Sequence record: NC_052652.1
Origin: Escherichia phage vB_EcoM_PHB05
DNA length: 64,000 nucleotides
Strand: one strand, 5' to 3'
Shown: positions 20,564 through 57,646 of the stretch, one piece after another
Numbering within the stretch: position 1 is the stretch's first letter
How the letters are laid out: each line of letters opens with the position of its first letter
The notes under the pieces: model-generated
What the model saw: only the letters and a program-made list of their open reading frames with translations
The model's database searches: none
What the model was told of the DNA's origin: nothing
Position numbers and translations under genes: made by a program

Positions 20564-20574
20564 ATGGCTCCTTG

Positions 20575-22222: not shown

Positions 22223-22231
22223 AATAACTCC

Positions 22232-22795: not shown

Positions 22796-22852
22796 ACTCC
22801 CTCCGTATTATTACTTTAGCATTTTTAGACTAAAAAGTCCAAATGGTTTTAC

Positions 22853-25410: not shown

Positions 25411-25482
25411 AATTTATTATCTCCTTTGTTGTTAATTTACGTTGTCTATTTTACTAATCTTTTCTACAAAGTCAAGCGTTTT

Positions 25483-26277: not shown

Positions 26278-26278
26278 A

Positions 26279-26548
26279 TTATTTCTCCTTTCTGAGTGTA
26301 ATGTTAGTAACTTCTAAATCCACTTCTACTACTTCTGTATCATATAAAATACAGTTAAGTTGACCTCTTTGTGAACCGTTCAGACACATTGCTTGGTTTG
26401 TATTAACCTTAATAAACACTAAGTTTCTGAACGTATCTAAACCAGATTCTTGATAGGCAACATAATATACAAATGTATCACCTGCGTCAAGTTCTCCAAA
26501 ACATTTAGGTTCATCTGATTTGTCGTCTTTGATATTAAATTTAAGCAC
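26279..26548 (-). CDS. Hypothetical small protein, 89 aa
   Basis: Track ORF. Confidence 0.3.
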   Translation of the reverse strand: MLKFNIKDDKSDEPKCFGELDAGDTFVYYVAYQESGLDTFRNLVFIKVNTNQAMCLNGSQRGQLNCILYDTEVVEVDLEVTNITLRKEK

Positions 26549-27104: not shown

Positions 27105-27304
27105 TATACACCAGCCTTAAGATCAACTAAAGCCAAAGTTGTTTCAGAATGTGTTTGCTCGTCTACAGGTGCAGTCATATGATAATACAAAAAGTCTTCG
27201 GCATCATACCAATCTGACTCTTGACCTTGTTTCCAACCATCAATGAAAGCATCTTCCATAATGGTTTGTAATTCTTCACGAGTTAAGTGAATATCTTTAT
27301 TCAT
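27104..27304 (-). CDS. Hypothetical small protein sharing the AF-x-GW motif, 66 aa
   Basis: See previous entry; translationally coupled. Confidence 0.3.
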   Translation of the reverse strand: MNKDIHLTREELQTIMEDAFIDGWKQGQESDWYDAEDFLYYHMTAPVDEQTHSETTLALVDLKAGV

Positions 27305-27537
27305 TACACATTCTCCTCTTTTACCAATTCCATCGTTGAACTATCAAAACCATCTTTAGAAGAATAGGTATAGACAGAACGTAGTTCTCGCAGGACAGTA
27401 AACACATTAGGATCATCTAACCAAGCATCCTGGAGGAGAACATAACGATCTTCATTGTCGTACTGGACAGCGATCATAGAACCAGACAGTTTGTAAATTT
27501 TAATATTCATAATATATTTCTCCTTAAAGTAGACCAC
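27304..27537 (-). CDS. Hypothetical small protein, 77 aa
   Basis: Track ORF. Confidence 0.3.
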   Translation of the reverse strand: MVYFKEKYIMNIKIYKLSGSMIAVQYDNEDRYVLLQDAWLDDPNVFTVLRELRSVYTYSSKDGFDSSTMELVKEENV

Positions 27538-28627
27538 GTTTAACAGTTTGAATCATACCATCTTCAAGAGATTGCACTTCTTGAATGTAATCAATACGAG
27601 CAGCACGGGCTTCAGTGTTGATCCGATTAGTTTCTTCCAACATTTTAACTAAGTTTTCTTGATCGCGACGTAATGTTTCAATATCCAATACTTGACGATT
27701 AGCAAGTTGCGTAGCTTCAATTTGGTTTTGTGCAGCCAGATCACTACCCATTGCAATAGCAGCATTAAACTCATTCAGTACATTGTTCTGTGTATCGGCT
27801 GCTTTCTTCTGGCGTAGACTTTCAATATACATAGAAAAGTTTGCAGAGTAAGCAGGAATAACATTATTCACAATATTACGGGCTGATCGCATCAAACTTG
27901 CAGATACTTTCTGCATACTTTGTACACGTGGCCCCATCTGAACACACAGTAAACGCAAGGCTTTCAGGTCTGCAATACGAATTTCAAGCAGATCCATAGT
28001 ATCACGAGTACGTTGACGCTCTTCTACTTCATTTTCAGGTAGTGTATTAAGGCGAACTTCTTCTTTTTCATAAGTAGCTGTTAGAAGCTCTATATCCCTG
28101 TTTAAGCTAAGAGCATATTTTGCAATAGCCTCTTCTAAACGTTGCAGATATCGTAAAGAATCTTCTTCTTTTTTCAAGTCTGTTTGGAGTGTCTTTACCA
28201 AACCTTCAATACGATTATTGATGGTGTCAAATTCTCCAAACAAATCTTCTTTCATACCTAATACTTTCTTAACTAACTTACCTAAGCCTTTAGATTGTTT
28301 AATAGAGTTAGGATCAAGTTGCTTTGCTTGCTTAATAAGTGCAGTTAAACGTTCACTCATTTCATCTCCCTGAGATGAACGCTGGTGTTTAAGCACTTCA
28401 GCATTAAGGTTACGAAGAGTAAGTCCTGCATCAGCACCAACTTGTTCAATCTCTTCACGAGACATTGGAGGCAGCATTTGTACAGGTCGTGCAACAGCAG
28501 GGGCATATACAGGGCTTGCATCCATAGCACTTGGAGCAAACAAAGACTTACTTTTTTCTGTTGTTGCCGTGAATACACTCATTTCAGACGGTTTGCTTTT
28601 TACGGCACTGATAAAAGGACTGGACAT
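27524..28627 (-). CDS. telA: TelA-like toxic-anion-resistance family protein (coiled-coil), 367 aa
   Basis: Length, predicted all-helical coiled-coil architecture with E/R/L-rich heptads and position next to TerD/TerC genes match TelA/KlaA family; assignment by resemblance, not verified. Confidence 0.5.
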   Translation of the reverse strand: MSSPFISAVKSKPSEMSVFTATTEKSKSLFAPSAMDASPVYAPAVARPVQMLPPMSREEIEQVGADAGLTLRNLNAEVLKHQRSSQGDEMSERLTALIKQAKQLDPNSIKQSKGLGKLVKKVLGMKEDLFGEFDTINNRIEGLVKTLQTDLKKEEDSLRYLQRLEEAIAKYALSLNRDIELLTATYEKEEVRLNTLPENEVEERQRTRDTMDLLEIRIADLKALRLLCVQMGPRVQSMQKVSASLMRSARNIVNNVIPAYSANFSMYIESLRQKKAADTQNNVLNEFNAAIAMGSDLAAQNQIEATQLANRQVLDIETLRRDQENLVKMLEETNRINTEARAARIDYIQEVQSLEDGMIQTVKRGLL

Positions 28628-28695
28628 TCAATTTCCTCCATATTCTTTAGTAGATGGTGATACCTCTGTACCACCATCATAACACAAATTAAGTA

Positions 28696-29547
28696 TTAAA
28701 CAAACATATCTAAATAATTTGTAGTAATAAATGCTCCATCTGCTTCCAGATTAACATAACCAGTAGCATTAGTGGTTAAGAAATCCAGATCGAAGGACTC
28801 TTTAACACCCCGTACCTCAACACGAGAGATATCGAATACAGGTAGTGTAACAGCCTCTTCGTGCAATACCGTACCTTTGTAGGTTGCCTTAATGATAAAC
28901 TTGATATTACCCGTTCCCGCATCATACAAAACACTTTCAAACCCTTTGAGAGTATACTTATCACCAGAAGTGAAGTGCAAAGTTGCTTTGTTTACAGTAC
29001 GTTTTTTACGAGGAGTTCCTTTCACACGTTTATGATCACTACGTTTTTTGTATTTAGGAGTGAATACAAACGATACACTCTCAAGAAAGGTATCAACATC
29101 AAGGATTTCAATATCCTCTGTTGCAGCAAATTTTGAAGTCGTTGCATCAAAATGCTTTCCCCTGCGATCATACATAAAGATATCAAACCGATCTTCTAAA
29201 TCAAACAAATTATGTATCTTAATTTCAGAATGCTTGCACATTGCAGCAACCTTAAACTCTTCAAAACGTGGGTGTTCTACAAGCTCTTCAAGTTTTACAC
29301 CAAAGACAGTATATTGTTTCGAAGTTTTTTCTGGCGTTGGCATTACAGAAGCATAATCACCGATTGCGCTTTTAAAGCAAAATTGTTCTTGACCTGTATT
29401 TTTACCAACGAATTTACAGTATTCGTCATCGTGCATACTTTCTTTGGTAGTACCAACAAACTCAAAACCATCCTTATTCTTCTCAAGAATTTCTTGATTA
29501 AAGATCCAACCTTCCAGGCGATACACTTTACCAACTTCTAGTTTCAT
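28696..29547 (-). CDS. Hypothetical protein, 283 aa
   Basis: Track ORF between TelA-like and lipoprotein genes; basic KR-rich linker; no motif recognised. Confidence 0.4.
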   Translation of the reverse strand: MKLEVGKVYRLEGWIFNQEILEKNKDGFEFVGTTKESMHDDEYCKFVGKNTGQEQFCFKSAIGDYASVMPTPEKTSKQYTVFGVKLEELVEHPRFEEFKVAAMCKHSEIKIHNLFDLEDRFDIFMYDRRGKHFDATTSKFAATEDIEILDVDTFLESVSFVFTPKYKKRSDHKRVKGTPRKKRTVNKATLHFTSGDKYTLKGFESVLYDAGTGNIKFIIKATYKGTVLHEEAVTLPVFDISRVEVRGVKESFDLDFLTTNATGYVNLEADGAFITTNYLDMFV

Positions 29548-29582
29548 CTGTTCCTCCTTCTTATTTAATCTGTATTAAATTA

Positions 29583-30188
29583 TTAACGGCGACGTGAGCT
29601 ACTAAAACTACGTTTCGACGAAGAATAACTTTTCGAAGACTTACTATAAGAGCTAATAGGGCTTGAGTAAGACTTACGAGCAGAGTAATCACTATTCACT
29701 TTTGTTGTTGATGGGCGTGAATACGTTTGTACACTTTGCTGCTTAATTGTGTTTTGTTTAGTTGTTGTATATGTATTCCCTTGTTTATCATAAAAACTAT
29801 GCTTTTGTGTTGTATATGATTTACTGTTAGTTGTAGGAGCAGCGTTGTTATTAATAATTGTTGTATTGCTACCGCCATCTCTATAACCACCACCGCCACT
29901 ATTACCACTCAACATATGACCAAGAAGCATACCTGTAGCAAATTCACCTACACCAGAAGAACCACTACCGCCTCCTTGCACAACAACTGTTGAAGGCTGT
30001 GCAGGTGCTGCTTGAACAACTTGAGGTGCAGGTTGATTTACATATTGTTCATCTACCATCTGATTTGGTGTTTGTTGGTAACGTTGGTTTTGTACATTTT
30101 CAGAATCATCACAACCTACCAGCAATGCACTGCCTAAAACAACTGCAACAATAAAAGATTTAATGTTTTTCATTTGTAACCCTCTCAT
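29583..30188 (-). CDS. Lipoprotein with glycine-zipper segment and S/Y/Q/N-rich low-complexity tail, 201 aa
   Basis: Signal peptide plus lipobox (ALLVGC); GMLLGHMLSG glycine zipper; extreme S/Y/T/K-rich C-terminus. Confidence 0.55.
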   Translation of the reverse strand: MRGLQMKNIKSFIVAVVLGSALLVGCDDSENVQNQRYQQTPNQMVDEQYVNQPAPQVVQAAPAQPSTVVVQGGGSGSSGVGEFATGMLLGHMLSGNSGGGGYRDGGSNTTIINNNAAPTTNSKSYTTQKHSFYDKQGNTYTTTKQNTIKQQSVQTYSRPSTTKVNSDYSARKSYSSPISSYSKSSKSYSSSKRSFSSSRRR

Positions 30189-30366
30189 TTAAAGTCTCAA
30201 CACAATTTTTAAAATCTCTAGAGAAACAATACATCTGTTCTCCGTTCCTGTTGATAGTAATTGTATGGTTATCAATATATGTTGTCAATATAAAAATCAA
30301 ACAAAATAGCCCTAAAGCAAAACAAATATTTTCAAACAGAATCCAAAGAACACGTAAAACCACCAT
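30160..30366 (-). CDS. Small membrane protein, 68 aa
   Basis: Single hydrophobic helix (ICFALGLFCLIFILTTYI). Confidence 0.3.
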   Translation of the reverse strand: MVVLRVLWILFENICFALGLFCLIFILTTYIDNHTITINRNGEQMYCFSRDFKNCVETLNERVTNEKH

Positions 30367-30382
30367 CAGATCACCTCAACAA

Positions 30383-30398
30383 AGCCCCCGAAGGGGCT
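30383..30398 (-). terminator. Terminator-like hairpin (AGCCCC CGAA GGGGCT)
   Basis: GC stem with tetraloop between the TerC-like gene and downstream genes. Confidence 0.4.
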
Positions 30399-30405
30399 TA
30401 ATGAA

Positions 30406-31383
30406 TTAAGCAACAGCCTGGTCTTCTTTTTCAGGGAAGATTAAACTTGCAATAACACCCAGCCCCAGAGTACCTAACACAATATACATACTGATCGTCG
30501 GATCAATGTGTGCTGGCAGGAAACTCACTTTTGCGTGCAGAGTTTCTGCAAATGGGTGATACATCAGTTTTACACCCACAAATACCAGGACTACGATAAC
30601 TGCTTTCTCCAGATGAACCAAATATTTCAGTGCAACACTAAGGACAAAGAACAGAGCACGTAGACCTAAAATTGCACACAGCATTGAAGAAAATACAAGC
30701 AGAGGTTCTTGTGTCACTGCAATTACTGCTGGAACAGAATCTACTGCAAAGATTACGTCAACCATTTCCATTACAAACACACAAACCAATGCAGGAGTTG
30801 CTACACGAACACCATTTTTGATTGTGAAGAACTTCTCACCATCCATCTGATCAGATACAGGGAACAGCTTACGAACAATGCGAGTAGCCCAGTGTTTAGA
30901 GTAATCAACTTCTGCGTCATTATCTCCAGCGAATACCATTTTAGCTGCACAGAAAAGGATGATCGCACCGAAGAAGATATTAACATACCAGCCCAAACTC
31001 AACAAGTAAGTGCCTACTGCTACAAACACACCTCGGAAGACAATCGCACCTGCAATACCCCAAAGTAGAATCTTGTGCTGCAAGTGTGTGCTTTTAATAC
31101 CAAAACTTGCGAATACTGCCACAAATACTACTAAGTTATCTACAGAAAGAGATTTCTCCAACACATACCCACTCAAGAACAAGCTCGCAAAATCAGCACC
31201 GTGTTGGAAGTATACAAAACCATAGTAGGCTAATGATACCCCAATCCAGAAAATTGACCAGCCAATTGCAGATTTAAATGAAATTTCTTTGTTTTCTCTG
31301 TGTCCAAAGAAATCAATACAAATCGACAAGACTAAAATACCCACTAAAACAACCACATCAATAATTGGGAAACCCAGTTGCAT
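30406..31383 (-). CDS. terC: TerC-family integral membrane protein, 325 aa
   Basis: Multiple TM helices and hallmark motif LEKSLSVDNLVVFVAVFASFG of the TerC/Alx family. Confidence 0.7.
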   Translation of the reverse strand: MQLGFPIIDVVVLVGILVLSICIDFFGHRENKEISFKSAIGWSIFWIGVSLAYYGFVYFQHGADFASLFLSGYVLEKSLSVDNLVVFVAVFASFGIKSTHLQHKILLWGIAGAIVFRGVFVAVGTYLLSLGWYVNIFFGAIILFCAAKMVFAGDNDAEVDYSKHWATRIVRKLFPVSDQMDGEKFFTIKNGVRVATPALVCVFVMEMVDVIFAVDSVPAVIAVTQEPLLVFSSMLCAILGLRALFFVLSVALKYLVHLEKAVIVVLVFVGVKLMYHPFAETLHAKVSFLPAHIDPTISMYIVLGTLGLGVIASLIFPEKEDQAVA

Positions 31384-31401
31384 TCTTTTCTCCTCTTTAA
31401 T

Positions 31402-31420
31402 GCGGAGGACAATCCTCCGC
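31402..31420 (-). terminator. Hairpin (GCGGAGGA CAAT CCTCCGC) upstream of the TerC-like gene, possible terminator of the preceding transcript
   Basis: 7-bp stem in the 77-nt intergenic gap. Confidence 0.35.
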
Positions 31421-31460
31421 TCTATGTCGTATACTATAAACTGTTTTTAAAGAAAGTCAA

Positions 31461-31709
31461 CTAGTTCAGTTCTGTAATTTTAAGTTTATCTTCTTTGTTA
31501 ATGATAGGGAAAGCTACAGCATCACCTACATCATCAATAAAGCAAACAGCAAGACCACCTTCCACTTTGCTAACCTGACCATTAAAGGCGTGATACGGGG
31601 CAGGAACAATATCTCCATCTTCAAGGAGAATAGCCTCATAAACCTTACCAACAGTACAATCACGAGTGTTTATAAATTTTTCAAGCACTTCAACATTTAC
31701 TTTACGCAT
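31461..31709 (-). CDS. Hypothetical small protein, 82 aa
   Basis: Track ORF. Confidence 0.35.
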   Translation of the reverse strand: MRKVNVEVLEKFINTRDCTVGKVYEAILLEDGDIVPAPYHAFNGQVSKVEGGLAVCFIDDVGDAVAFPIINKEDKLKITELN

Positions 31710-31724
31710 ATAAAAAATCCTCTC

Positions 31725-31931
31725 TTATTTGTTAGATTGAAAGATACCACGAAGTACCGCAAGAATGAACGTCACACAGACTACACTCCAAAACGTTACA
31801 GGAACATGATGCCAGTCTAAACCGATAATGTCAATCATATAGTTGTATGCTAAAAGCAGTAGCCAACTAGGGATTAACACAATCAAGAACACAACAATAA
31901 AACAACCTAATACTGCTAAAACACCTGCCAT
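31725..31931 (-). CDS. Small membrane protein, 68 aa
   Basis: Two hydrophobic helices (LAVLGCFIVVFLIVLIPSWLLLLAY; VTFWSVVCVTFILAVL). Confidence 0.35.
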   Translation of the reverse strand: MAGVLAVLGCFIVVFLIVLIPSWLLLLAYNYMIDIIGLDWHHVPVTFWSVVCVTFILAVLRGIFQSNK

Positions 31932-31940
31932 ACTTTCTCC

Positions 31941-32657
31941 TTATTTCAGTTTGTAAACAATTACATTTAAACCTTTGTTCACTAGAGTTTCTTCGATCAT
32001 AAGTTTTACAATATTCCAAGAACCTCCAGCCAAACCACAACCAAGCATTGGTAAACCTACAATTTTACCGCCTGAAGATACAACATCGTCTCCCATACTA
32101 TCTAACGCATTGTAGATAGCTTCATAATTCAGGTCACGCTTACCTTCCTCACGACGACTATAACCATATTGTCCATATAAATTATAAATTGTCAAATTGT
32201 TTTCTGTATACTTAGTAAACGTACCTAATTTTTTATAATCACCACGTTTAGTGGCACAATCTGCTTTAAACGCACCAGGCCACTTGCTTTTAATTTTTGG
32301 TGCAATACCACTACCCATAGTGCAAAAACAGTTACAGCAGTGTGCTATAGCGTCTATATCGCCTCTCTCGGCTGCTGCTAAAAGATCACCGTATACCTCA
32401 ATGATACCTGCTGGATAACTTGTTACAATTTCATCTTCCCAATACATTTTCTCTACACCACCGATCAGTGCAAAGTTTTGTGTAATGCGATCATCAATAT
32501 AGTTAAGACCTGAAACATACACAGCATATTCATCCTGTGCTGTAATGCCTTGTACACGAATTCTTAAGACACCATCTTTATCTGTTGCTACGCGCCCAAA
32601 ATCTTTTTCTGTAATATTGGTGATAGGATCTCCGAAAGTCGTCACTTTATTAGACAT
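31941..32657 (-). CDS. Macro-domain protein (Poa1p-like ADP-ribose-derivative processing enzyme), 238 aa from internal start
   Basis: Motif IDAIAHCCNCFCTMGSGIA matches the H-x-CN...MG-GIA signature of Poa1-type macro domains; start set at the Met with RBS AAGGGG, giving an 8-nt overlap with the upstream gene. Confidence 0.5.
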   Translation of the reverse strand: MSNKVTTFGDPITNITEKDFGRVATDKDGVLRIRVQGITAQDEYAVYVSGLNYIDDRITQNFALIGGVEKMYWEDEIVTSYPAGIIEVYGDLLAAAERGDIDAIAHCCNCFCTMGSGIAPKIKSKWPGAFKADCATKRGDYKKLGTFTKYTENNLTIYNLYGQYGYSRREEGKRDLNYEAIYNALDSMGDDVVSSGGKIVGLPMLGCGLAGGSWNIVKLMIEETLVNKGLNVIVYKLK

Positions 32658-33507
32658 AATAATCCCCTTTAACATTAGATTTGTTGATAATGTTGCTTTC
32701 AAAAAATTGACGCAGGAAATCAAAGTTCTCTTTGTATTTTTCAATATTATTGTAACCTTCTGCAAGGCAACCAAAGAACAGTTGTTCTACATAATACAAA
32801 GGAAGTTGTGAAAGTGCAATTTTAAAATCAACTTCGCTTTGACTCATTAGATACTTAATAGGACGAACCAAACATTTAGCATCAGTTTCTTGCTTAATCA
32901 TTTTAATAAAAGCTGCCAAGTTATTGATATAGTTGAAGTTAAGCGCAGCTTCGGTGTTGGCTTCTGTACCTTCATACTTTGCAAAGTACAGGAAAAACGT
33001 ATCGTTTTCAACACCTTCTTTGTCTAAAATTTCAATAAGTTTTTCTTCGTGTGTTCCTGTAATATTAACATCATCAATGAAAATCAGAGTTTTATTACCC
33101 CAGAAATCACGATTGATAGAGAAAGTGTCACCATCAATCAAAGCCTTACGATCTTCTTTGCTAAGAAATCCATAATCATTGATATAACTCACTTTACGAT
33201 GAACGATATCCCACTCTACTGCTTTACCTCCTTTGATAGAGATTAGGTAGTTGAGGTGATCTACAAAATGTTCAGATAACACTGTAGCTGCATTTTTCAC
33301 ATAGTTGTATGGAGATGGAATAACAACAAAACTTTCATTTACTAGTCGTTCTTCATATTTAGAAAAGAAACTTTCAGCCAGAATGCGTCCCATTCTTTTT
33401 GCTGCCTGGTTACTACCAAACTTTAGTTTGGAATAATCTGCAATGTTAAATTTTGCTTCCTTCAGGTTAGTAAAAGTATTAGCAAAATGTTGAATTTGAT
33501 TACGCAT
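32650..33507 (-). CDS. Phosphoribosyltransferase (type I PRTase fold) family protein, 285 aa
   Basis: PRPP-binding motif TLIFIDDVNITGTHEEKL (hydrophobic strand, two acidic residues, TG-T). Confidence 0.55.
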   Translation of the reverse strand: MRNQIQHFANTFTNLKEAKFNIADYSKLKFGSNQAAKRMGRILAESFFSKYEERLVNESFVVIPSPYNYVKNAATVLSEHFVDHLNYLISIKGGKAVEWDIVHRKVSYINDYGFLSKEDRKALIDGDTFSINRDFWGNKTLIFIDDVNITGTHEEKLIEILDKEGVENDTFFLYFAKYEGTEANTEAALNFNYINNLAAFIKMIKQETDAKCLVRPIKYLMSQSEVDFKIALSQLPLYYVEQLFFGCLAEGYNNIEKYKENFDFLRQFFESNIINKSNVKGDYYV

Positions 33508-34156
33508 TAATAAGTTCCTCTTTTTTAAGTTTAGCCAACAAATCTTCTGGATTAATAATATGACAGAACTTCATCCCTATGTCAACAGCTTTTCCATCAT
33601 AGATCAAACTATCTCCAACGTGTAAAATCTCCTCTGGTGCGAGATCAAACGTTACCATTTCATCAAAAGAGAGTTTAAAAAACCTAGGATCTGGTTTACA
33701 CAAGCAAAACTCATCAGAAAAATGCATAAAGTCAAATGGTAATTTTGTTAAGCCAGAATATACAGCTAAGAAACTACCTGGTACAAAATTAGTATTGCTC
33801 TTAATACTCAAAGAATAGGTTGAACTTAGCTCTTCCAACTTCTTGCAAAGCTCATGGTTCAATATTGGAGGATGTTTTATAAACATTGCTAAACAGTCTC
33901 TTTTTAATCCATCCACTTTATCAAGATCAATGTTCAAACGAGTAGAAAGTGTTTCCCAAGCATTCCTAGACGTTCCACAAATGCCTTTTTCTGCTTTTAA
34001 ATCCAGGAGAGTTTTTACCTCTTTATATACGGTAGCTGCTTCTGCCTCAGAACAAGAGGTATACTCGGCAATAACCTTGTTGCGTTCTTCTGCATACAAA
34101 GGATTAGCAGTAATAAGAGTATTCCATACATCAAAAGAAATATGCTTAACAGTCAT
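33500..34156 (-). CDS. HAD-superfamily hydrolase-like protein (phosphatase/nucleotidase-like), 218 aa from internal start
   Basis: N-terminal ISFDVWNTLI (motif I-like, second Asp replaced) and C-terminal HVGDSLIYDGKAVDIG (motif IV-like); start at the Met with RBS GGAGG. Confidence 0.45.
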   Translation of the reverse strand: MTVKHISFDVWNTLITANPLYAEERNKVIAEYTSCSEAEAATVYKEVKTLLDLKAEKGICGTSRNAWETLSTRLNIDLDKVDGLKRDCLAMFIKHPPILNHELCKKLEELSSTYSLSIKSNTNFVPGSFLAVYSGLTKLPFDFMHFSDEFCLCKPDPRFFKLSFDEMVTFDLAPEEILHVGDSLIYDGKAVDIGMKFCHIINPEDLLAKLKKEELINA

Positions 34157-34325
34157 TTTTAATCCTCCGTCCAAAAGAATATCATCTGCTTAATTTTATT
34201 AATCTCTTGACGTAGTAACTTTCCAGCATGTGCTTGATCTTTAAGATTTGCAGCAAGAGTTTCAAGCTCCGTTAGTTTTTCCTGGATAGCTTTATATTCA
34301 TCATCTGTAAGCATTTTCTTCCCCT

Positions 34326-34563: not shown

Positions 34564-35724
34564 TTAGTAAGAACGACCACCAAACACATACTCTGTGTAG
34601 TTTTTACGTTCTTTGTTTTTAATAACAACTTCAATGTTGTTACCTTTATCATCGGTGAACATAAAGTGATAACCGTCACCACCCATTGTACGAATGTGTT
34701 TTTCATCATACGTTAGCAAGATACGGTCTACACCCCAGTAGTAGTCACCTTCTTCATCTTTATCTTCTACGGTAACGATCCCTTCCATTTCAGGAAGATG
34801 CTCTTCTCCTGACTTATGATCTACAGCTACAACATAACGATTACCGCTAAACAAACCTTGTGCTGTCATACCGTCAATATCGGTATCTGACGAAACATCC
34901 CCTGTACGATCTACACCGTTAACTTTCAGAAGTTTAACTTCTTTTGCAGCATAGCGGTGTTCAGTAATACTGATACCCATTAATGCAAGTGCATCAGAGA
35001 ATTTGTCATTAGGGTAACGGTTAAGTTCTTCTACTAATGACTGAACAATATCAAAGTTCAAATCCACGGAGAGATTATAAAGCGTTTCAAAATCTGGTAA
35101 GAAGGCTTTGTTCTCCAGATTTTTAGCCAGATAATCATCCATAGTAGCTTTAGGTAGTTTCTTATAGCTAAAACTGTAGAAAATACGGCTAGGACGATTA
35201 CGCAAAAATTCTGATACATAACCATCATTTTTAGTCAATACAAACAGCTTGTCATAACCACCAACACCATCCAGCAGGGTAAGCAGACCATCTTGTGCAT
35301 CTTTTTCAGCATACAGTTTATCAAATTCATCGATCATAATCATCACAGGTTGTGTGATTTTAGACATAAAATTGATAAAGCCTTCACCATTAAAAGCACT
35401 ACCGATAGAAATAGTAGGAATACCCATTTCACGAAGAGCAGAAGACAGCATTTTAGCTTGCAAAGTTTTACCGCTACCTTTCGTACCCTCAAGGAGAACA
35501 CCTGTGTTTTTACCTTTGCGGCTAAGGAACGTCTTGATAATACGTTCTGATTTATCATCAGTATCACCGTATGTTACTGAAGGGACTTCCATATCGTTTT
35601 TAGGATACAGGAAGAACTCGCCACTTTGAGTAACACCTACACCAAAAGTTCCTGCTGGAATTTCTTCAATATCTGTACCAGACTTCTGACGCAGGAAGAT
35701 TTGATTGCCGAATACTGTAAACAT
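34564..35724 (-). CDS. P-loop AAA+-type ATPase, copy A (RFC/clamp-loader-like motif layout), 386 aa
   Basis: Walker A GTKGSGKT, Walker B MIMIDEFDK, sensor-1-like VLTKNDG, arginine motif NRPSRIFY; paralogue of 50489..51616. Confidence 0.6.
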   Translation of the reverse strand: MFTVFGNQIFLRQKSGTDIEEIPAGTFGVGVTQSGEFFLYPKNDMEVPSVTYGDTDDKSERIIKTFLSRKGKNTGVLLEGTKGSGKTLQAKMLSSALREMGIPTISIGSAFNGEGFINFMSKITQPVMIMIDEFDKLYAEKDAQDGLLTLLDGVGGYDKLFVLTKNDGYVSEFLRNRPSRIFYSFSYKKLPKATMDDYLAKNLENKAFLPDFETLYNLSVDLNFDIVQSLVEELNRYPNDKFSDALALMGISITEHRYAAKEVKLLKVNGVDRTGDVSSDTDIDGMTAQGLFSGNRYVVAVDHKSGEEHLPEMEGIVTVEDKDEEGDYYWGVDRILLTYDEKHIRTMGGDGYHFMFTDDKGNNIEVVIKNKERKNYTEYVFGGRSY

Positions 35725-50488: not shown

Positions 50489-51616
50489 ATGAAATACACG
50501 ATTTATGGTGATATTGTAAGTGTAAATAAAGATATGGGTGTGGAATCTAATTATCTTCCACCTGGATTCTATACTGTTAGTCGTGATCCCCTTGGCAATT
50601 ATTTTTTAAGCCGTGGTAATCTAACAGGTGTACCGGATGTTCTGTATGGTGAAACAGAAAAACGAGCAAATCACGTTATCCGTACATTCCATCGCCGGAG
50701 TGCACAAGGTAAAAATACAGGTTTGCTTCTGACAGGAACTAAGGGCAGTGGTAAAACTATGTTAGCCAAGCTCATTAGTCGTGACCTTGTAGAAGAAGGT
50801 ATTCCAACTATTATGGTTACTCAAGCCTACAGTGATGCTAATTTCATTGAACTTATTAGCAAGATCACCGACAAAGCAGTGATTATTTTTGACGAGTTTG
50901 ATAAAGTATATGAGAAGAAACAAGATCAAGAAGCACTTCTCACTTTGTTAGATGGTACTGGCAGTGGTAATAAACTGTTTATTCTAACTAAAAACAGTGG
51001 CTTTATCTCTGAATTCTTTCTAAATCGTCCTAGTCGTGTGTTTTATAATTTTAATTATGATAAAATCTCACTAGAAACTATGATTGACTATTTAGATAAA
51101 AACCTGGATAACAAAGCACACTTTGATAATTTCCAAAGACTTTGGGATGTAAGTTTAGAGTTGTCCTTTGATGTGATCCAAGGTATAGTAGAAGAACTTA
51201 ATTTCTACCCTGATTTATCCTTTAAAGAATGCATCTCTATGATGGGCGTTTCTTTGGGTGGTGGTAATAAATGGGATATCAGTAGCGTTATTATTAATGG
51301 AAAACTTCAGAAAGTTAGCTGGGTATCTAGTTGGCATAACTTTACACCTGCAATCTTTTTAGGTGGCTCGTGCACACTAGACGTGTACTTGTCATCTCCA
51401 AGTGATGCAGATTCTAAAGAAGCCCTTGCTAATAGCTCTTACGTGGTTTTTGATGATGAAGGCGATGCTCGAATTCCGTTGAATGCGACAAAAATGAAAG
51501 CAGACCTTATCACAGGCGGTAAAATCGTTGTGTTTAGTGATGATCCAGAAGATTCTTTCCGTATTGTTCTGGAACCAACTATCACCAATGGTGCAACTTT
51601 GGCAAGTGTGTTTTAA
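50489..51616 (+). CDS. P-loop AAA+-type ATPase, copy B (paralogue of 34564..35724), 375 aa
   Basis: Walker A GTKGSGKT, Walker B VIIFDEFDK, ILTKNSG, NRPSRVFY; N-terminal 80 aa and ATPase core align with copy A, C-terminal third diverges. Confidence 0.6.
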   Translation: MKYTIYGDIVSVNKDMGVESNYLPPGFYTVSRDPLGNYFLSRGNLTGVPDVLYGETEKRANHVIRTFHRRSAQGKNTGLLLTGTKGSGKTMLAKLISRDLVEEGIPTIMVTQAYSDANFIELISKITDKAVIIFDEFDKVYEKKQDQEALLTLLDGTGSGNKLFILTKNSGFISEFFLNRPSRVFYNFNYDKISLETMIDYLDKNLDNKAHFDNFQRLWDVSLELSFDVIQGIVEELNFYPDLSFKECISMMGVSLGGGNKWDISSVIINGKLQKVSWVSSWHNFTPAIFLGGSCTLDVYLSSPSDADSKEALANSSYVVFDDEGDARIPLNATKMKADLITGGKIVVFSDDPEDSFRIVLEPTITNGATLASVF

Positions 51617-51690: not shown

Positions 51691-52863
51691 ATGGTAGCAC
51701 TAAAATCATGGGAACAATATAAAGAAGAATTAATACCCCTTGCTAAAAATCACAATATTCAAATCTTGGGTTATGTTGGTGAATGGAAAGGGAACAAGAC
51801 TAAACTTAAGCTATCTTGCCCTAAACATGGAGAGTGGAACACCACGAACATTAATGATTTTAAGAAGGGACGTGGTTGTCCTATCTGTTCTGGTAAGAAG
51901 CCGTTAACATGGGAAACAGAATTGCCGATCTTGGAAGAGATAGCACAGAAGAGGGGGTATCAGGTGTTAGGGTACGTGGGAGAATGGAAAGGGAATAAAA
52001 CAAAACTTGATTTGTTGTGTCATTGTGGTAATAAATGGGATACTACAAGTATTAACAATTTTAAACGTGGTAGCGGTTGTCCACAATGTAAGAGGGAGAG
52101 ACAAACAATGTCCGACGATCAACATATTGCAGATTTCTTTTCTACAGGGGAATTTAAGGAAGGCACTATCTTCACCAATACAGGGAAACGTAACAAGCGT
52201 GATGCAGTATGGATGGTTGAGTGTCCTGTTTGCTCCCATGATGAATATGTTCAAGCAGGTGTTTGTGATGGTAAATTTTACTCTGCAGGACATAACCTTA
52301 AACAAGGGTATATTCCGTGTCGTTGTGGGAACTATCAGTATACAGAAGACCAGATCACCTATAGGGTAAAAAAGGAAGTAGAAGGGAAAGGGTATGTCTG
52401 GGTAGATTGGATTACCAAACCCTCTTCTATAGGTAAGTTTAAATATCTTTGTCTTGTGCATGGTGAGCAGATAGGGAGTGCTCGTAATTTATTAAGCCTC
52501 GGTCAAGGTTGTCCACAGTGTGCTGGTCATAATCAACAGCAATTATATATTAATATTGTTAAAGATAATGGTATTATAGTTGCTCTTAAGTTTGGTATAT
52601 CTAAAGATAGCGATAGACGATTAAACGGTCAAAATAGCCGTAATCTGTTTTTTATGGAGCGTATTTGTTTATATGATTTTAGCACAGTGAAACAATGTAG
52701 GGCTGCTGAAAGAGCTATAAAGAAAAAATTAAAAACTGGTATTTTAACGGCAAGAGAGTTGAAAGATGGTTATACAGAAACAGTAAGTGTTTCTGATTTG
52801 GAAAATCTTCAAAAAATTATTACACAATATGGTGGCAAATTAGTATACAGTAAGGAGGTGTAA
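51691..52863 (+). CDS. Tandem zinc-ribbon-repeat protein with C-terminal GIY-YIG/T5orf172-like domain (putative nuclease), 390 aa
   Basis: Repeated modules GYVGEWKGNKTKL-L-C-HGEW-TT-IN-FK-G-GCP-C (four copies, paired cysteines); C-terminal IVALKFGISKDSDRRL resembles the T5orf172 signature. Confidence 0.4.
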   Translation: MVALKSWEQYKEELIPLAKNHNIQILGYVGEWKGNKTKLKLSCPKHGEWNTTNINDFKKGRGCPICSGKKPLTWETELPILEEIAQKRGYQVLGYVGEWKGNKTKLDLLCHCGNKWDTTSINNFKRGSGCPQCKRERQTMSDDQHIADFFSTGEFKEGTIFTNTGKRNKRDAVWMVECPVCSHDEYVQAGVCDGKFYSAGHNLKQGYIPCRCGNYQYTEDQITYRVKKEVEGKGYVWVDWITKPSSIGKFKYLCLVHGEQIGSARNLLSLGQGCPQCAGHNQQQLYINIVKDNGIIVALKFGISKDSDRRLNGQNSRNLFFMERICLYDFSTVKQCRAAERAIKKKLKTGILTARELKDGYTETVSVSDLENLQKIITQYGGKLVYSKEV

Positions 52864-53415
52864 ATGCGGATTACTGATAAGTATGTGTTCTTCTTCTCGG
52901 CAAAAGATGAATTTAGCAACTGGTATCTATCATCTTTTATTGAACCTTTAGCACCCAAGTATAATAATTCTATTACAAGTTCTGTTGAATTTACTTGTGT
53001 GGAACAATATATGATGTGGAGAAAAGCATGTTTGTTTTATGATTACAGTATTGCATCTTCTATTTTAACCGGAGATCTAAGATATACAGGAGAAAAAGAA
53101 CAAGCATATTATAAACGACTAGGCAGATTAGTTAAAGATTATGATGAAGATACCTGGGCTTCTTTACGGGAGAAGATTGTCAAGCGTGGTTTGTATCTTA
53201 AATACACACAAAATGAAGATCTCAAAAATAAACTTATCGCTTACGCAGATAAGGAGTTCGTAGAGGCAAGCCCCTATGATTCTATTTATGGTATCAAAAT
53301 GGGGATGTGGGATCGGGACGTGGAAAATAAGGATTGTTGGAAAGGACAAAATCTTTTAGGAAAATGGCATACAGACCTTGCTGTTTATCTAAAATCACAA
53401 TCTGATATTTCCTGA
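52864..53415 (+). CDS. NADAR-domain protein (YbiA-like), 183 aa
   Basis: Motif FFFSAKDEFSNWYLSSF ... FTCVEQYMMWRKACLFYD matches the NADAR/DUF1768 signature (FF..SNW...F.S.EQ.mM..KA..F.D). Confidence 0.6.
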   Translation: MRITDKYVFFFSAKDEFSNWYLSSFIEPLAPKYNNSITSSVEFTCVEQYMMWRKACLFYDYSIASSILTGDLRYTGEKEQAYYKRLGRLVKDYDEDTWASLREKIVKRGLYLKYTQNEDLKNKLIAYADKEFVEASPYDSIYGIKMGMWDRDVENKDCWKGQNLLGKWHTDLAVYLKSQSDIS

Positions 53416-53631
53416 TATTTTGAAAATTTTTATTTTTATAAAAAGGGGTGTGGGTTTCATGTACGGAAATCCACCCTCTGAATAATATATCCAGAGTAAG
53501 TAGTATTCTATACCCTGTTAATAAAGTATTTAATTTGTTTGTTGGACTATGGTATCTGATCTTTAAAAGGCATACTATCTCTTAACTACTACTTATAACA
53601 GAACAGTAAAATCATTTTTATAAAAAGTACA

Positions 53632-53845
53632 AAATTATTTAAAGTTTTTACAGATTTTTGGATACAAATTTTGAAAATGAAAAGTTCAAGTTTGGTCAAA
53701 ATTATTTAAAGTTTTTGTACGTATTTCTATCCAGATTTTGAAAATGAAAACTTCAATTTTTTAAAAATTCCCCAGTTTATTTAAAGTTTTTTTGCCTTTT
53801 TCCGTAGAAAAATCAAAAATGAAAAGTTCAATTTCGTGTTTTTAT
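53632..53845. repeat. Three tandem direct repeats of about 68 bp (core ATTATTTAAAGTTTTT ... ATTTTGAAAATGAAAAGTTCAA)
   Basis: Core strings TATTTAAAGTTTTT and TTTTGAAAATGAAAAGTTCAA each recur three times at about 68-bp spacing. Confidence 0.6.
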
Positions 53846-53857
53846 GGGTATGCGTAT

Positions 53858-53975
53858 GATAATCATTCTCATTTGTAAATGAGAATCATTATCATTTAAT
53901 TATGTAAATGATAAGCATTCTCACTAAGAGAATGAGAATCATTAGCAAATGAGAATTTTTCTCATTTAGAGAATA
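53858..53975. promoter_or_regulatory. Array of Fur-box-like palindromes (AATGAGAAT C ATTCTCATT and GATAATCATT units)
   Basis: TGATAATCATTCTCATTTGTAAATGAGAATCATTATCATTT... contains several overlapping near-matches to the enterobacterial Fur box GATAATGATAATCATTATC. Confidence 0.45.
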
Positions 53976-54228
53976 ACGCGCAGGGGCGGTGTTTGTCTCG
54001 CGCTCCCGTGTCCCCTCGCCATACAATAAGAATAGCATAACCAACAACAAAAGCAAGCGATTATTTTTATCTTTACATTTCTTTACAAATTTATTTTGGA
54101 CGAGCTACCGGCGATCAACCTTCCAACCAGTGCCCCCTGGTATGTTAGCCCCGCCTTTACGCCGTGGGGGTGGCGTTTCCTCTTCTGTATGTAAAACAGT
54201 ATAAGCCCGATCCCTGGGCTTGTCAAGA

Positions 54229-54495
54229 TTATTTTTTGTTTTCTTGCCAGGAAAGGACACCTAACCAAAAATACATATCGCCCCGCGCCCCTGGCGGGAT
54301 CTTGCTTTCCCCGCCGCCACTGCAAGCCCATAAATAACCATTTACGAACGTATCAAAGTGATCTATCTCTTCCACCTTATGATCGCCCAGGTTGAGAACG
54401 GTTTCAACCTTTAAGCCCGTTGCGCTTGCTACCTGGTGCACCGTGCCGCCTTGCCAGCCCAATGAGTGCATGAGATGTAAAGGAGTATTTGTCAT
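54229..54495 (-). CDS. Early-block small protein (leftward gene of divergent promoter pair), 88 aa
   Basis: Track ORF; preceded on the - strand by a TTGCTA-17-TATTAT promoter, a GC stem-loop and AGAAAGGG RBS, the same cassette layout as the + strand early genes. Confidence 0.4.
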   Translation of the reverse strand: MTNTPLHLMHSLGWQGGTVHQVASATGLKVETVLNLGDHKVEEIDHFDTFVNGYLWACSGGGESKIPPGARGDMYFWLGVLSWQENKK

Positions 54496-54516
54496 GGTAT
54501 CGCCCTTTCTTTGATG

Positions 54517-55025: not shown

Positions 55026-55047
55026 AAATCAAAGAAAGGGTAATGCA

Positions 55048-57624: not shown

Positions 57625-57646
57625 AAATGAAAGAAAGGTTATCATT

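What the first reader, a model, noticed from the sequence alone, without database searches (positions are those of the whole stretch)
52864..53415. NADAR-domain protein plus macro-domain protein: candidate ADP-ribosylation counter-defence
The 183-aa ORF carries the NADAR signature (FFFS..SNWY...EQYMMWRKACLFYD). NADAR and macro domains both hydrolyse ADP-ribose conjugates; a phage encoding both (macro at 31941..32657) may reverse ADP-ribosylation of DNA or proteins imposed by host systems. The NADAR gene sits at the end of the middle-gene block just before the regulatory repeats.
Basis: partly seen in the sequence, partly recalled or inferred. Interest (0 to 1): 0.6.

Follow-up and report, generated by a model that had tools for sequence, protein, structure and literature searches.

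The report
Known phage enzyme that un-tags DNA
This gene encodes a phage enzyme already shown in near-identical form to strip a toxic ADP-ribose tag that the bacterial DarTG1 defence puts on viral DNA; a second, distant gene probably removes the sister tag made by DarTG2, so the finding is correct but largely already published.

Summary
Window 52864..53415 (+) is a 183-aa NADAR protein (Pfam E 3.4e-36), and 31941..32657 (-) is a macro-domain protein. The window is a Justusliebigvirus (rV5/phi92-like E. coli myophage).

The NADAR is 181/183 identical to bas60_0111 of phage Bas60, and Bas60-62 are the phages whose NADAR was published as AdfN^Bas60 (Johannesman et al., Nat Commun 2025). That protein neutralises DarT1 toxicity, rescues three phages on DarTG1 hosts, and does not counter DarTG2. 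All mapped catalytic and ADP-ribose-binding residues are present. This part is already known.

The macro protein has not been tested. It is a Gln-type ALC1-like macrodomain. It is 30% identical to T4 Tk.4 (AdfM, anti-DarTG2), and its best solved relative is SCO6735, which cleaves thymidine-ADP-ribose on DNA. It keeps SCO6735's essential Asn and Gln. It is therefore a likely anti-DarTG2 arm, as in T4.

The two genes are 21 kb apart on opposite strands here. The macro sits in a HAD-PRTase-macro operon inside a Ter cluster. In 20 of 80 other viral loci, however, the same two subfamilies lie within 600 nt of each other (25 of 80 within 6 kb).

The parts
52864..53415 (+). NADAR gene (183 aa), an ortholog of AdfN^Bas60 and a Glu-type NADAR DNA ADP-ribosylglycohydrolase. 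Key residues are E47, K54, K84, R88, Y93 and E134.
   Evidence: ORF. Pfam NADAR E 3.4e-36. 181/183 identical to bas60_0111, 179/183 to bas62_0106, and 100% to phage ALITA. Best PDB hit is 8BAU, PnNADAR, E 6.5e-13. Residue mapping.
52851..52859 (+). Shine-Dalgarno sequence TAAGGAGGT, 4 nt before the NADAR ATG and lying inside the last codons of the upstream gene. This indicates co-transcription and translational coupling.
   Evidence: Sequence read directly.
51691..52863 (+). Upstream neighbour: a 390-aa protein with three CapR zinc-ribbon repeats and a T5orf172 domain (endonuclease-like). It shares an operon with the NADAR gene, and no role in ADP-ribose removal is inferred.
   Evidence: Pfam CapR E 3e-43 and T5orf172 E 5e-4. 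PHROG 681 'endonuclease'. Its length varies between relatives: 467 aa in Bas60 and 329 aa in KMB37.
31941..32402 (-). Macro domain (residues 86-238) of the 238-aa protein, plus its stop codon at 31941-31943. It is a Gln-type ALC1-like/Tk.4/SCO6735-class domain. Key residues are N109, Q163, G165, G206 and a basic loop (R168, R169, K173, R174).
   Evidence: Pfam Macro. PDB sequence hits are SCO6735 (E 3.3e-15), BT1257 and TARG1. 30% identical to T4 Tk.4, E 1e-17. Alignments A1 and A4. AF2 pLDDT 91-98, with Foldseek TM 0.90 to TARG1 and 0.80 to DarG.
32403..32657 (-). N-terminal ~85-aa all-beta module of the macro protein. It has no known family and looks like a portable module of unknown function.
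   Evidence: Only 68 of 2971 phage records with a macro homologue cover it. Only P0007 and P0008 among 151 homologues have it. Its own relatives P0003, P0004 and P0006 carry other C-terminal parts. AF2 gives beta strands with pLDDT 52-74 and no structural match.
32650..33507 (-). PRTase_3 (ComF-like phosphoribosyltransferase), overlapping the macro start by 8 nt. It is an operon partner of the macro gene; a role in ADP-ribose reversal is not supported.
   Evidence: Pfam PF15610 E 1.1e-41. ORF overlaps. In unrelated phages the pair partner is HAD, not macro.
33500..34174 (-). HAD-family phosphatase, overlapping PRTase_3 by 8 nt. It is the first gene of the HAD-PRTase-macro operon.
   Evidence: NCBIfam HAD-IA hits. 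PHROG 14393 'hydrolase'. Annotated as HAD in KMB37.

Best explanation
The 183-aa ORF encodes an orphan-antitoxin-type NADAR enzyme, an ortholog of AdfN^Bas60. When a host DarT1 toxin attaches ADP-ribose to the N2 amino group of guanines in single-stranded phage DNA and blocks replication, this enzyme binds the ADP-ribose and hydrolyses the N-glycosidic bond. K84, R88 and Y93 contact the diphosphate and adenine; E47, K54 and E134 surround the distal ribose. Free ADP-ribose is released and the DNA is restored, so the phage escapes DarTG1. The activity is shown for a 99%-identical protein and is inferred here by near-identity.

The separate 238-aa macro protein is most likely the complementary arm. 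It is a Gln-type (SCO6735/T4 Tk.4-AdfM class) macrodomain that would remove ADP-ribose from thymidine N3, the DarT2 product. Q163, locked by N109, would position the distal ribose for water-mediated cleavage. This step is inferred from homology only. Together the two genes would give the phage cover against both DarTG types, as T4 has with AdfN plus AdfM.
For: NADAR, shown or directly measured:
- Pfam NADAR E 3.4e-36.
- 181/183 identity to Bas60 bas60_0111 and 179/183 to Bas62 bas62_0106.
- Bas60, Bas61 and Bas62 are the phages whose NADAR was named AdfN^Bas60. It neutralises DarT1 without any phage factor, restores RB69, T5 and Bas25 to full titre on DarTG1 hosts, and has no effect on DarTG2 (PMC11825919).
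- The residues mapped in PnNADAR and E. coli C7 NADAR (E43/E88, K50/K95, K75, R79, Y84; PMC11543638) align to E47, K54, K84, R88 and Y93. The last-strand Glu is E134.
- The two substitutions relative to Bas60 (A99T, S178T) lie outside these positions.

Macro, inferred:
- Pfam Macro. The only hits in PADLOC and NCBIfam are DarG, over its macro half.
- 30% identical to T4 Tk.4 (E 1e-17), whose knockout sensitises T4 to DarTG2 (preprint 10.1101/2025.11.20.689424).
- The best PDB sequence hit is SCO6735. It cleaves DarT-made thymidine-ADP-ribose and rescues E. coli, with Gln85 and Asn27 essential (PMC9411070).
- The equivalents Q163 and N109 are nearly invariant across 42 family members.
- The confident AF2 model is closest to TARG1 and DarG.

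Linkage: homologues of both subfamilies are immediate neighbours in metagenomic phage contigs. They lie within 600 nt in 20 of 80 viral loci, on the same strand and in both gene orders.
Against: - No deletion of the NADAR gene in a native Bas60-type phage is reported. The published tests were ectopic, so necessity in this phage is not shown.
- I could not confirm the accession used for AdfN^Bas60, because the paper's supplementary tables are not held.
- The macro protein lacks the DarG2 K80 / TARG1 K84 lysine and the DarT-binding domain.
- It carries an unexplained N-terminal module.
- It is translationally coupled to PRTase_3 and HAD inside a Ter cluster. This synteny is kept in Phapecoctavirus, a Pseudomonas phage and a metagenomic relative.
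- Many loci that link NADAR and macro also carry NAMPT, PRPP-synthetase-like, Nudix and SIR2 genes. That could point to soluble ADP-ribose metabolism rather than DNA repair.
- In this window the two genes are 21 kb apart on opposite strands.
Confidence: 0.8

Rival explanations
1. Both enzymes mainly process soluble ADP-ribose derivatives rather than modified DNA. Candidate substrates are immune signals, O-acetyl-ADP-ribose or ADP-ribose-1''-phosphate, and by-products of NAD turnover. This would make them part of a phage NAD-centred metabolism and counter-signalling network.
For: Iyer et al. 2022 argued this for phage Macro and NADAR domains from contextual analysis (PMC9503650). In 80 viral loci with this NADAR subfamily, NAMPT-like genes occur in 30, PRPP-synthetase-like in 16, Nudix in 10, SIR2 in 9 and SLOG in 7. 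The contigs L019-L021 show the order Nudix-SLOG-NAMPT-NADAR-Macro-HAD.
Against: AdfN^Bas60 directly neutralises a DNA-modifying toxin in cells and rescues phages. SCO6735 and T4 Tk.4, the macro's nearest characterised relatives, act on or against DNA thymidine ADP-ribosylation. Clustering with NAD-reconstitution genes may simply reflect anti-defence islands with a shared NAD theme. No NAMPT or Nudix gene is annotated in the window-equivalent region.
Confidence: 0.12
2. The macro protein is a working part of the HAD-PRTase_3 module of the phage Ter system. It would trim a phosphoribosylated, nucleoside-like metabolite made by PRTase_3 and HAD, and would have nothing to do with the NADAR or with host ADP-ribosylation.
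For: The three ORFs overlap by 8 nt each. They lie between TerC/TelA/TerD/vWA-TerF and the anaerobic ribonucleotide reductase genes. The HAD-PRTase-macro-TerC order is conserved in Phapecoctavirus (PRTase 65% identical; macro is the N-extension-less 157-aa form), in Pseudomonas phage PsgM04F (macro 49% identical) and in a metagenomic relative (macro 53% identical). PRTases and HAD enzymes are described as the metabolite-making part of Ter systems (PMC7824862).
Against: In unrelated phages (Rhizobium, Caulobacter) the HAD-PRTase_3 pair occurs without any macro. The same macro family occurs in thousands of phages without PRTase_3, including T4 and a Certrevirus. None of the 80 NADAR loci with nearby macro genes has this PRTase_3 or HAD. 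The phages that conserve the synteny share overall genome synteny, so the adjacency may be inherited rather than selected.
Confidence: 0.15
3. The NADAR is a YbiA-like N-glycosidase that destroys reactive riboflavin-pathway intermediates. This is the housekeeping function used in the deposited annotations ('putative YbiA-like N-glycosidase', 'GTP cyclohydrolase II').
For: It scores 110 bits on NCBIfam TIGR02464, 'riboflavin biosynthesis intermediates N-glycosidase', above the 73.7-bit cut-off. It has the Glu-type last strand shared with YbiA. Records annotate it this way.
Against: TIGR02464 is in effect a model of the NADAR domain and does not separate subfamilies. The protein is closer to PnNADAR (E 6.5e-13) than to YbiA (E 0.037). 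The published phylogeny places AdfN^Bas60 with non-YbiA bacterial NADARs. E. coli YbiA fails to protect against DarT1 in cells, whereas AdfN^Bas60 does. No riboflavin genes are annotated nearby.
Confidence: 0.04
4. The hydrolases reverse ADP-ribosylation of proteins, either host proteins modified by a phage transferase or phage proteins modified by the host. This is the protein-substrate half of the first reader's suggestion.
For: SCO6735 and TARG1 also hydrolyse protein Glu/Asp-ADP-ribose. T4-like phages encode ADP-ribosyltransferases next to such genes.
Against: The papers read here report NADAR activity only on nucleic-acid bases and riboflavin intermediates, not on proteins. No ADP-ribosyltransferase is annotated in the window-equivalent region. 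The window macro lacks the TARG1 K84/D125 dyad used for protein de-modification.
Confidence: 0.04

Closest known systems
AdfN^Bas60 (anti-DarT factor NADAR of BASEL phages Bas60/61/62; Johannesman et al., Nat Commun 2025, PMC11825919)
   Same: Essentially the same protein: 181/183 identical to bas60_0111 and 179/183 to bas62_0106. It has the same length and the same genomic position, after the AAA ATPase and the CapR/T5orf172 gene. It is a stand-alone core NADAR with no N-terminal extension.
   Different: Two conservative substitutions (A99T, S178T). It comes from a different isolate; the protein is 100% identical to that of phage ALITA. The window protein itself has not been tested.
T4 AdfN (gp30.3) plus AdfM (Tk.4): a two-enzyme cover against DarTG1 and DarTG2
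   Same: One phage carries a NADAR and a small macro protein at separate loci. The macro domains are homologous: 30% identity, a shared AHxCNCFxTMGSG(I/V)A motif, and Gln at the DarG-Lys position.
   Different: The NADARs are of independent origin. T4's is the His type and shows no detectable pairwise similarity (E 2.2). It also needs a T-even factor for full activity, whereas AdfN^Bas60 does not. The window macro has an extra 85-aa N-terminal module and sits in a HAD-PRTase operon.
SCO6735 of Streptomyces coelicolor (PDB 5E3B), a Gln-type ALC1-like macrodomain
   Same: It is the best solved-structure sequence match (E 3.3e-15). The window protein conserves Asn27, Gln85, Gly87 and Gly126 as N109, Q163, G165 and G206, and has a long basic mobile loop.
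   Different: SCO6735 is a bacterial, DNA-damage-linked protein without the N-terminal module. Val25 is Cys in the window protein (a backbone role is proposed for this residue), and Lys89 is Ser with Arg-Arg next to it.
DarG1 and DarG2 antitoxins of DarTG toxin-antitoxin systems
   Same: The enzyme superfamilies are the same (NADAR for guanine-ADP-ribose, macro for thymidine-ADP-ribose), and so is the chemistry being reversed.
   Different: There is no adjacent DarT gene. The NADAR lacks the DarG1 N-terminal extension and has Glu rather than Asp in the last strand. The macro lacks K80 and the C-terminal DarT-binding domain: it scores 48.9 bits against the 250-bit cut-off of the DarG model and matches positions 4-147 of 338.
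PhiKZ gp104 AdfM (chimallivirus DarG2-like macrodomain, PMC13309987)
   Same: It is a phage-encoded stand-alone macro protein that counters DarTG2 by removing ADP-ribose from DNA.
   Different: PhiKZ AdfM keeps the DarG2-type Lys (K78) and is only 19% identical to the window protein in alignment A1. The window macro is the Gln type.

Membership tests
NADAR superfamily (Pfam PF08719) | Significant match to the family profile over the whole domain | tested here: met
   E 3.4e-36, 125.4 bits against a 35.1-bit cut-off; residues 13-168 match profile positions 9-154 of 163.
NADAR superfamily (Pfam PF08719) | Catalytic Glu and Lys (E43/K50 in PnNADAR, E88/K95 in E. coli C7 NADAR) and the ADP-ribose contacts K75, R79 and Y84 | tested here: met
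   E47, K54, K84, R88 and Y93 align to these positions. E47, K54 and R88 are invariant across the window protein, phAPEC8, T4 gp30.3, YbiA and PnNADAR.
AdfN^Bas60 orthologous group | Near-identity to the NADAR of Bas60/61/62 at the syntenic position | tested here: met
   181/183 identical to bas60_0111 and 179/183 to bas62_0106, with the same flanking genes. The accession used in the paper could not be checked because the supplements are not held.
AdfN^Bas60 orthologous group | Neutralises DarT1 and rescues phages on DarTG1 hosts; no effect on DarTG2 | not testable with these tools
   Published for the 99%-identical protein, not for the window protein itself.
DarG1-type (DarT1-associated) NADAR | Asp instead of Glu in the last strand, an N-terminal fold extension, and an adjacent darT1 gene | tested here: not met
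   The last strand reads FVE134AS. The domain starts at residue ~8 with no extension. The neighbours are the CapR/T5orf172 gene and an ORF-poor region.
T4 gp30.3-type phage NADAR (AdfN^T4) | His replaces the last-strand Glu; sequence similarity to gp30.3 | tested here: not met
   Glu is present. BLASTP against gp30.3 gives E 2.2.
YbiA-type riboflavin-intermediate N-glycosidase | Match to TIGR02464 and Glu-type last strand | tested here: met
   110 bits against a 73.7-bit cut-off; E134. The model does not discriminate between NADAR subfamilies.
YbiA-type riboflavin-intermediate N-glycosidase | Closest similarity to YbiA, and fusion to or neighbourhood with riboflavin genes | tested here: not met
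   E 0.037 to YbiA against 6.5e-13 to PnNADAR. No riboflavin genes are annotated nearby. The published tree places it with non-YbiA bacterial NADARs.
Macro domain (Pfam PF01661), ALC1-like/TARG1/DarG class | Profile match and macro fold closest to TARG1, BT1257 and DarG | tested here: met
   Pfam E 2.2e-7. PDB sequence hits are SCO6735, BT1257 and TARG1. The AF2 model has pLDDT 91-98 in the domain, with Foldseek TM 0.90 to TARG1, 0.82 to BT1257 and 0.80 to DarG.
DarG2 antitoxin / PhiKZ-type AdfM | Catalytic Lys (Taq DarG K80, PhiKZ K78) and, for DarG2, a C-terminal DarT-binding domain | tested here: not met
   The position holds Gln163. The protein ends after the macro domain. The DarG model matches only positions 4-147 of 338, at 48.9 bits against a 250-bit cut-off.
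SCO6735-type Gln macrodomain (thymidine-ADP-ribose DNA hydrolase) | Gln85 and Asn27 (both essential), Gly87, Gly126, and a long basic mobile loop | tested here: met
   The equivalents are Q163, N109, G165, G206 and the loop R168-R169...K173-R174. N109 and Q163 are at least 90% conserved in 42 homologues. Val25 is Cys107; only a backbone role is proposed, so this position is inconclusive.
T4 Tk.4 / AdfM^T4 family | Homology to Tk.4 | tested here: met
   30% identity over 139 aa, E 1e-17. Genes annotated tk.4 in T4-like phages are tblastn hits.
T4 Tk.4 / AdfM^T4 family | Protects the phage against DarTG2 | not testable with these tools
   Shown for T4 tk.4 only. No DarTG phenotype of Justusliebigviruses was found in the literature.
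Ter-system metabolite module (PRTase + HAD) | The macro gene co-occurs with PRTase_3-HAD wherever that pair is found | tested here: not met
   The pair occurs without a macro in Rhizobium and Caulobacter phages. The macro is adjacent only in Stephanstirmvirinae-like phages.

The most novel reading that the evidence does not exclude
Justusliebigviruses may carry a three-base DNA de-ADP-ribosylation kit. Because AdfN^Bas60 is a Glu-type NADAR, it would remove cytidine-linked as well as guanine-linked ADP-ribose. Glu-type NADARs were shown to do this, while Asp-type DarG1 and His-type T4 NADARs do not (PMC12945103). The N-terminally extended Gln-type macro protein would be a new architectural variant of AdfM that removes thymidine-linked ADP-ribose. 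Its portable beta module, also found fused to other C-terminal regions, would target it to a partner or to DNA.
Probability: 0.3. Interest if true: 0.4.

Novelty: already known. Interest (0 to 1): 0.2.

Why it matters
DNA ADP-ribosylation by DarTG systems is an established anti-phage defence, and orphan-antitoxin enzymes are how phages undo it. Identifying this gene as AdfN^Bas60 corrects misleading database labels ('YbiA-like N-glycosidase', 'GTP cyclohydrolase II').

It also predicts that phages of this genus, which are used in therapy and biocontrol collections, resist DarTG1 hosts.

What remains open is modest:
- Is the macro protein the matching anti-DarTG2 arm?
- What does its N-terminal module do?
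- Why does it sit in a HAD-PRTase operon of a phage Ter cluster?

Each of these can be tested with existing DarTG plasmids and the BASEL phages.

Tried and rejected
- **NARP3.** I considered whether the PRTase next to the macro belongs to a phage NAD-reconstitution pathway. NARP3 is PnuC plus NadR and is unrelated.
- **Anantharaman 2012 Ter paper.** I tried to read it for a macro link, but it is not held.
- **AdfN^Bas60 accession.** I tried to confirm it from the paper's supplements, but none are held.
- **Single-sequence AF2 of the macro protein.** The model was useless (pLDDT 37.7). It was repeated with a 42-sequence alignment.
- **N-terminal module against 1.84 billion representatives.** Only six hits came back. 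Two are giant cadherin/repeat proteins, which I regard as spurious short-stretch matches. No Pfam family was found for the real ones.
- **DarG2-type mechanism for the macro.** Rejected, because the catalytic Lys is Gln.
- **Macro as an obligate part of the PRTase_3-HAD module.** Rejected, because the pair occurs without a macro in unrelated phages.
- **AAA ATPase link.** I checked whether the ATPases near both genes match the AAA gene in the metagenomic NADAR-macro islands. Only generic AAA similarity was found.
- **ORF-poor stretch after the NADAR gene.** Rfam and tRNA scans found nothing.
- **Native phenotypes.** No published DarTG phenotype of native Bas60-type phages was found.
Full report
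**What is there.** The window is a Justusliebigvirus (phi92/rV5-like, Stephanstirmvirinae) E. coli myophage. The 3 kb around the finding is 98.5% identical to phage JohannJBalmer (Bas62) and matches 139 phage records. The region around the second gene is 99.2% identical to several relatives. It matches Pfam NADAR at E 3.4e-36, well above the curated cut-off. A strong Shine-Dalgarno sequence, TAAGGAGGT, sits 4 nt before the ATG, inside the last codons of the upstream gene, whose TAA abuts the ATG. The NADAR gene is therefore co-transcribed and translationally coupled with a CapR-repeat/T5orf172 endonuclease-like gene.

**The NADAR is a published counter-defence enzyme.** The deposited BASEL records call the ortholog a 'putative YbiA-like N-glycosidase'. 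Johannesman et al. (Nat Commun 2025, PMC11825919) reported that Bas60, Bas61 and Bas62 encode a distinct NADAR, which they named AdfN^Bas60. When expressed ectopically:
- it neutralises DarT1 toxicity in E. coli without any phage factor;
- it restores RB69, T5 and Bas25 to full titre on DarTG1 hosts;
- it does not change T5 plaquing on DarTG2, so it is specific for guanosine-linked ADP-ribose.

The window protein is 181/183 identical to bas60_0111, 179/183 to bas62_0106 and 100% identical to the protein of phage ALITA. I could not check the accession used in the paper because its supplements are not held. These are, however, the only NADAR genes annotated at this locus in those phages.

**Residues and subfamily.** The closest solved structure is the Phytophthora NADAR 8BAU (E 6.5e-13); E. 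coli YbiA is much weaker (E 0.037). The residues that Schuller et al. (PMC11543638) mapped for ADP-ribose binding and catalysis are E43, K50, K75, R79 and Y84 in PnNADAR, with E88 and K95 the equivalents in E. coli C7 NADAR. They align to E47, K54, K84, R88 and Y93 in the window protein. E47, K54 and R88 are invariant across the window protein, phAPEC8, T4 gp30.3, YbiA and PnNADAR. The last-strand charged residue that separates the subfamilies is Glu (FVE134AS). It is not the Asp of DarG1 or the His of T4 gp30.3. There is no detectable pairwise similarity to T4 AdfN (E 2.2), which fits the published view of independent acquisition. The protein also passes NCBIfam's 'riboflavin intermediates N-glycosidase' domain model. 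That explains the database labels, but the model does not separate subfamilies. YbiA itself fails to protect against DarT1 in cells, while AdfN^Bas60 does.

**Distribution of the NADAR.** Homologues of this NADAR type occur in 723 phage records, mostly large myoviruses: Kayvirus, P100-like, SPO1-like and Phapecoctavirus (58% identity). In phAPEC8 the gene keeps its place at the end of the ATPase-endonuclease block and is followed by a terminator and a promoter-rich early region.

**The macro protein.** ORF 31941..32657 (-) matches Pfam Macro over residues 106-217.
- Sequence relatives with structures are SCO6735 (5E3B, E 3.3e-15), BT1257, TARG1 and, more weakly, DarG.
- Its only hits in PADLOC and NCBIfam are DarG models, over their macro half only and far below the equivalog cut-off.
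- It is 30% identical (E 1e-17) to T4 Tk.4. A 2025 preprint shows Tk.4 is the single T4 gene needed to resist DarTG2 and names it AdfM.
- A second, independently named AdfM, PhiKZ gp104, keeps DarG2's N22 and K80 as N23 and K78.

In alignment A1, the window protein keeps the Asn (N109). At the Lys position it has Gln (Q163), as do T4 Tk.4, SCO6735 and BT1257. This is not a defect. SCO6735 cleaves DarT-made thymidine-ADP-ribose in vitro and rescues E. coli from DarT. Its Gln85 and Asn27 are essential, and a longer basic loop aids DNA binding (PMC9411070). The window protein has the equivalents N109, Q163, G165 and G206 and a long loop with R168, R169, K173 and R174. N109 and Q163 are at least 90% conserved in 42 homologues. 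An AF2 model built on that alignment is confident in the macro domain (pLDDT 91-98). It is closest to TARG1 (TM 0.90), BT1257 (0.82) and Taq DarG (0.80). The most likely function is therefore removal of thymidine-linked ADP-ribose from DNA, an AdfM-like anti-DarTG2 role. This is inference from homology and nothing here tests it.

**What argues for caution on the macro.** The protein has an 85-aa N-terminal module that only 68 of 2971 phage records with a macro homologue cover. Among 151 database homologues, only two clusters have it. A search with the module alone against 1.84 billion representatives found three credible relatives. They share the motif AD.GR[IV]AVS..G.YRI ... LIGG..M[FY]WEDE but have different C-terminal parts or none. 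The model predicts a small all-beta domain of moderate confidence with no structural match.

The gene also overlaps a ComF-like PRTase_3 gene by 8 nt, and that gene overlaps a HAD phosphatase gene by 8 nt. The trio lies inside a Ter cluster: TerD, vWA-TerF, TelA and TerC. The HAD-PRTase-macro-TerC order is kept in Phapecoctavirus, in Pseudomonas phage PsgM04F and in a metagenomic relative with a 53%-identical N-extended macro.

Against a functional tie:
- the PRTase_3-HAD pair occurs without a macro in Rhizobium and Caulobacter phages; a Nudix gene follows the pair in the Rhizobium phage;
- the macro family occurs without PRTase_3 in a Certrevirus and in T4.

**Are the two genes linked?** In this window they are not physically linked: they are 21 kb apart, on opposite strands and in different operons. 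Elsewhere they are linked. A 45%-identical macro homologue lies 3 nt downstream of a NADAR gene in three metagenomic phage contigs, in the order Nudix-SLOG-NAMPT-NADAR-Macro-HAD...SIR2...PRPP synthetase. That NADAR is 36% identical to the window's (E 2e-31), has the same Glu type, and shows no similarity to T4's.

I then took 80 viral-contig loci carrying this NADAR subfamily. A Tk.4/SCO6735-type macro gene lies within 6 kb in 25 of them (31%), always on the same strand. It lies within 600 nt in 20, and both gene orders occur. With roughly one such gene per 100-300 kb genome, chance would give about 1% or less for the 600-nt class. The loci are not phylogenetically independent, so this is a count and not a statistic. 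The same loci often carry NAMPT-like (30), PRPP-synthetase-like (16), Nudix (10) and SIR2 (9) genes. This fits the co-occurrence described by Iyer et al. 2022. It keeps alive the rival view that these enzymes also handle soluble ADP-ribose derivatives.

**Comparison with what is known, and novelty.** The NADAR is a member of the AdfN^Bas60 group and is essentially the same protein. It is not a DarG1-type or T4-type NADAR, and not a YbiA housekeeping enzyme by closest similarity or context. The macro is a member of the Gln-type ALC1-like class with SCO6735 and T4 AdfM, not of the Lys-type DarG2/PhiKZ AdfM class. The idea of a NADAR-plus-macro double cover is already demonstrated for T4.

The finding is therefore correct but already known for its primary gene, and a new, untested member of a known kind for the second. 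One small testable extension follows. Glu-type NADARs were recently shown to remove cytidine-ADP-ribose as well, unlike the Asp and His types (PMC12945103). AdfN^Bas60-type enzymes may therefore cover C as well as G.

**Limits.** Necessity of the NADAR in its native phage has not been reported, since only ectopic tests are published. No DarTG phenotype of Justusliebigviruses was found. All claims about the macro rest on homology and context.

Noticed in passing
window 32403..32657 (-): The macro protein carries an ~85-aa N-terminal all-beta module that is absent from almost all homologues. Its few relatives (P0003, P0004, P0006) share the motif AD.GR[IV]AVS..G.YRI...LIGG..M[FY]WEDE but have different C-terminal parts or none. 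It looks like a portable module of unknown function. By eye, the C-terminus of P0003 looks MazG-like (untested).
   Followed up: partly
window 24814..34174 (-): The phage carries a Ter ('tellurite resistance'-type) cluster: TerD, vWA-TerF-like, TelA, TerC, then macro, a ComF-like PRTase_3 and a HAD phosphatase, next to the anaerobic ribonucleotide reductase genes. The HAD-PRTase_3 pair recurs in unrelated Rhizobium, Xanthomonas, Caulobacter and Brevundimonas phages. In the Rhizobium phage a Nudix gene follows the pair.
   Followed up: partly
window 50489..51616 (+) and 34564..35724 (-): Two paralogous AAA ATPases are 47% identical over their first 254 residues, with unrelated C-terminal ~120 residues. 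One lies two genes upstream of the NADAR and the other a few genes upstream of HAD-PRTase-macro. They are annotated variously as 'FtsH-like protease' or 'ATPase or Zn metalloprotease'. Their function is unknown.
   Followed up: partly
window 51691..52863 (+): The gene translationally coupled to the NADAR has three CapR zinc-ribbon repeats and a T5orf172 domain (PHROG 'endonuclease'). Its length differs between close relatives: 390 aa here, 467 aa in Bas60 and 329 aa in KMB37. That variation suggests a mobile or rapidly changing gene.
   Followed up: no
window 53500..54500: The ORF-poor stretch after the NADAR gene has a very AT-rich segment (20-24% GC) with three tandem ~70-nt repeats at 53614-53834. 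A ~50% GC patch with hairpins follows at 54000-54500, in a genome of 37.8% GC. There is no Rfam or tRNA match. It could be a promoter cluster, an origin or a non-coding RNA region.
   Followed up: partly
window 55003-55042, 57602-57641, 58222-58261: A repeated 40-nt element with a GC-rich hairpin (AGGCGGGGAAATGGTTTCCCGCC...) recurs between the small + strand genes downstream. In phAPEC8 the equivalent region is annotated with repeated phage promoters.
   Followed up: no
window 19600..22800 (-): Four consecutive glycosyltransferase-like genes lie next to the primase/helicase and DNA polymerase genes. One of them (21536..22222) gives a sub-threshold hit to the TET-associated glycosyltransferase family (E 1.5e-5, 25.5 bits against a 27.5-bit cut-off). 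This raises the possibility of DNA or surface-glycan modification.
   Followed up: no
L019 2569-11062 (also L020, L021, L017): Metagenomic phage contigs carry compact NAD-themed islands in the order Nudix, SLOG (YAcAr), NAMPT-like, NADAR, Macro, HAD_SAK_2, NT5C, SIR2, SET and a PRPP-synthetase-like gene. The NAMPT-like plus PRPP-synthetase-like pair resembles the published NARP1 NAD-reconstitution pathway. L017 has two tandem macro paralogues instead of NADAR plus macro.
   Followed up: partly
L015 16525-17076 (phage KMB37) and other records: Orthologs and homologues of this NADAR are annotated 'GTP cyclohydrolase II' or 'YbiA-like N-glycosidase' in many phage records. These labels are probably carried over from riboflavin-enzyme fusions and are misleading, given the published anti-DarT1 activity.
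   Followed up: yes
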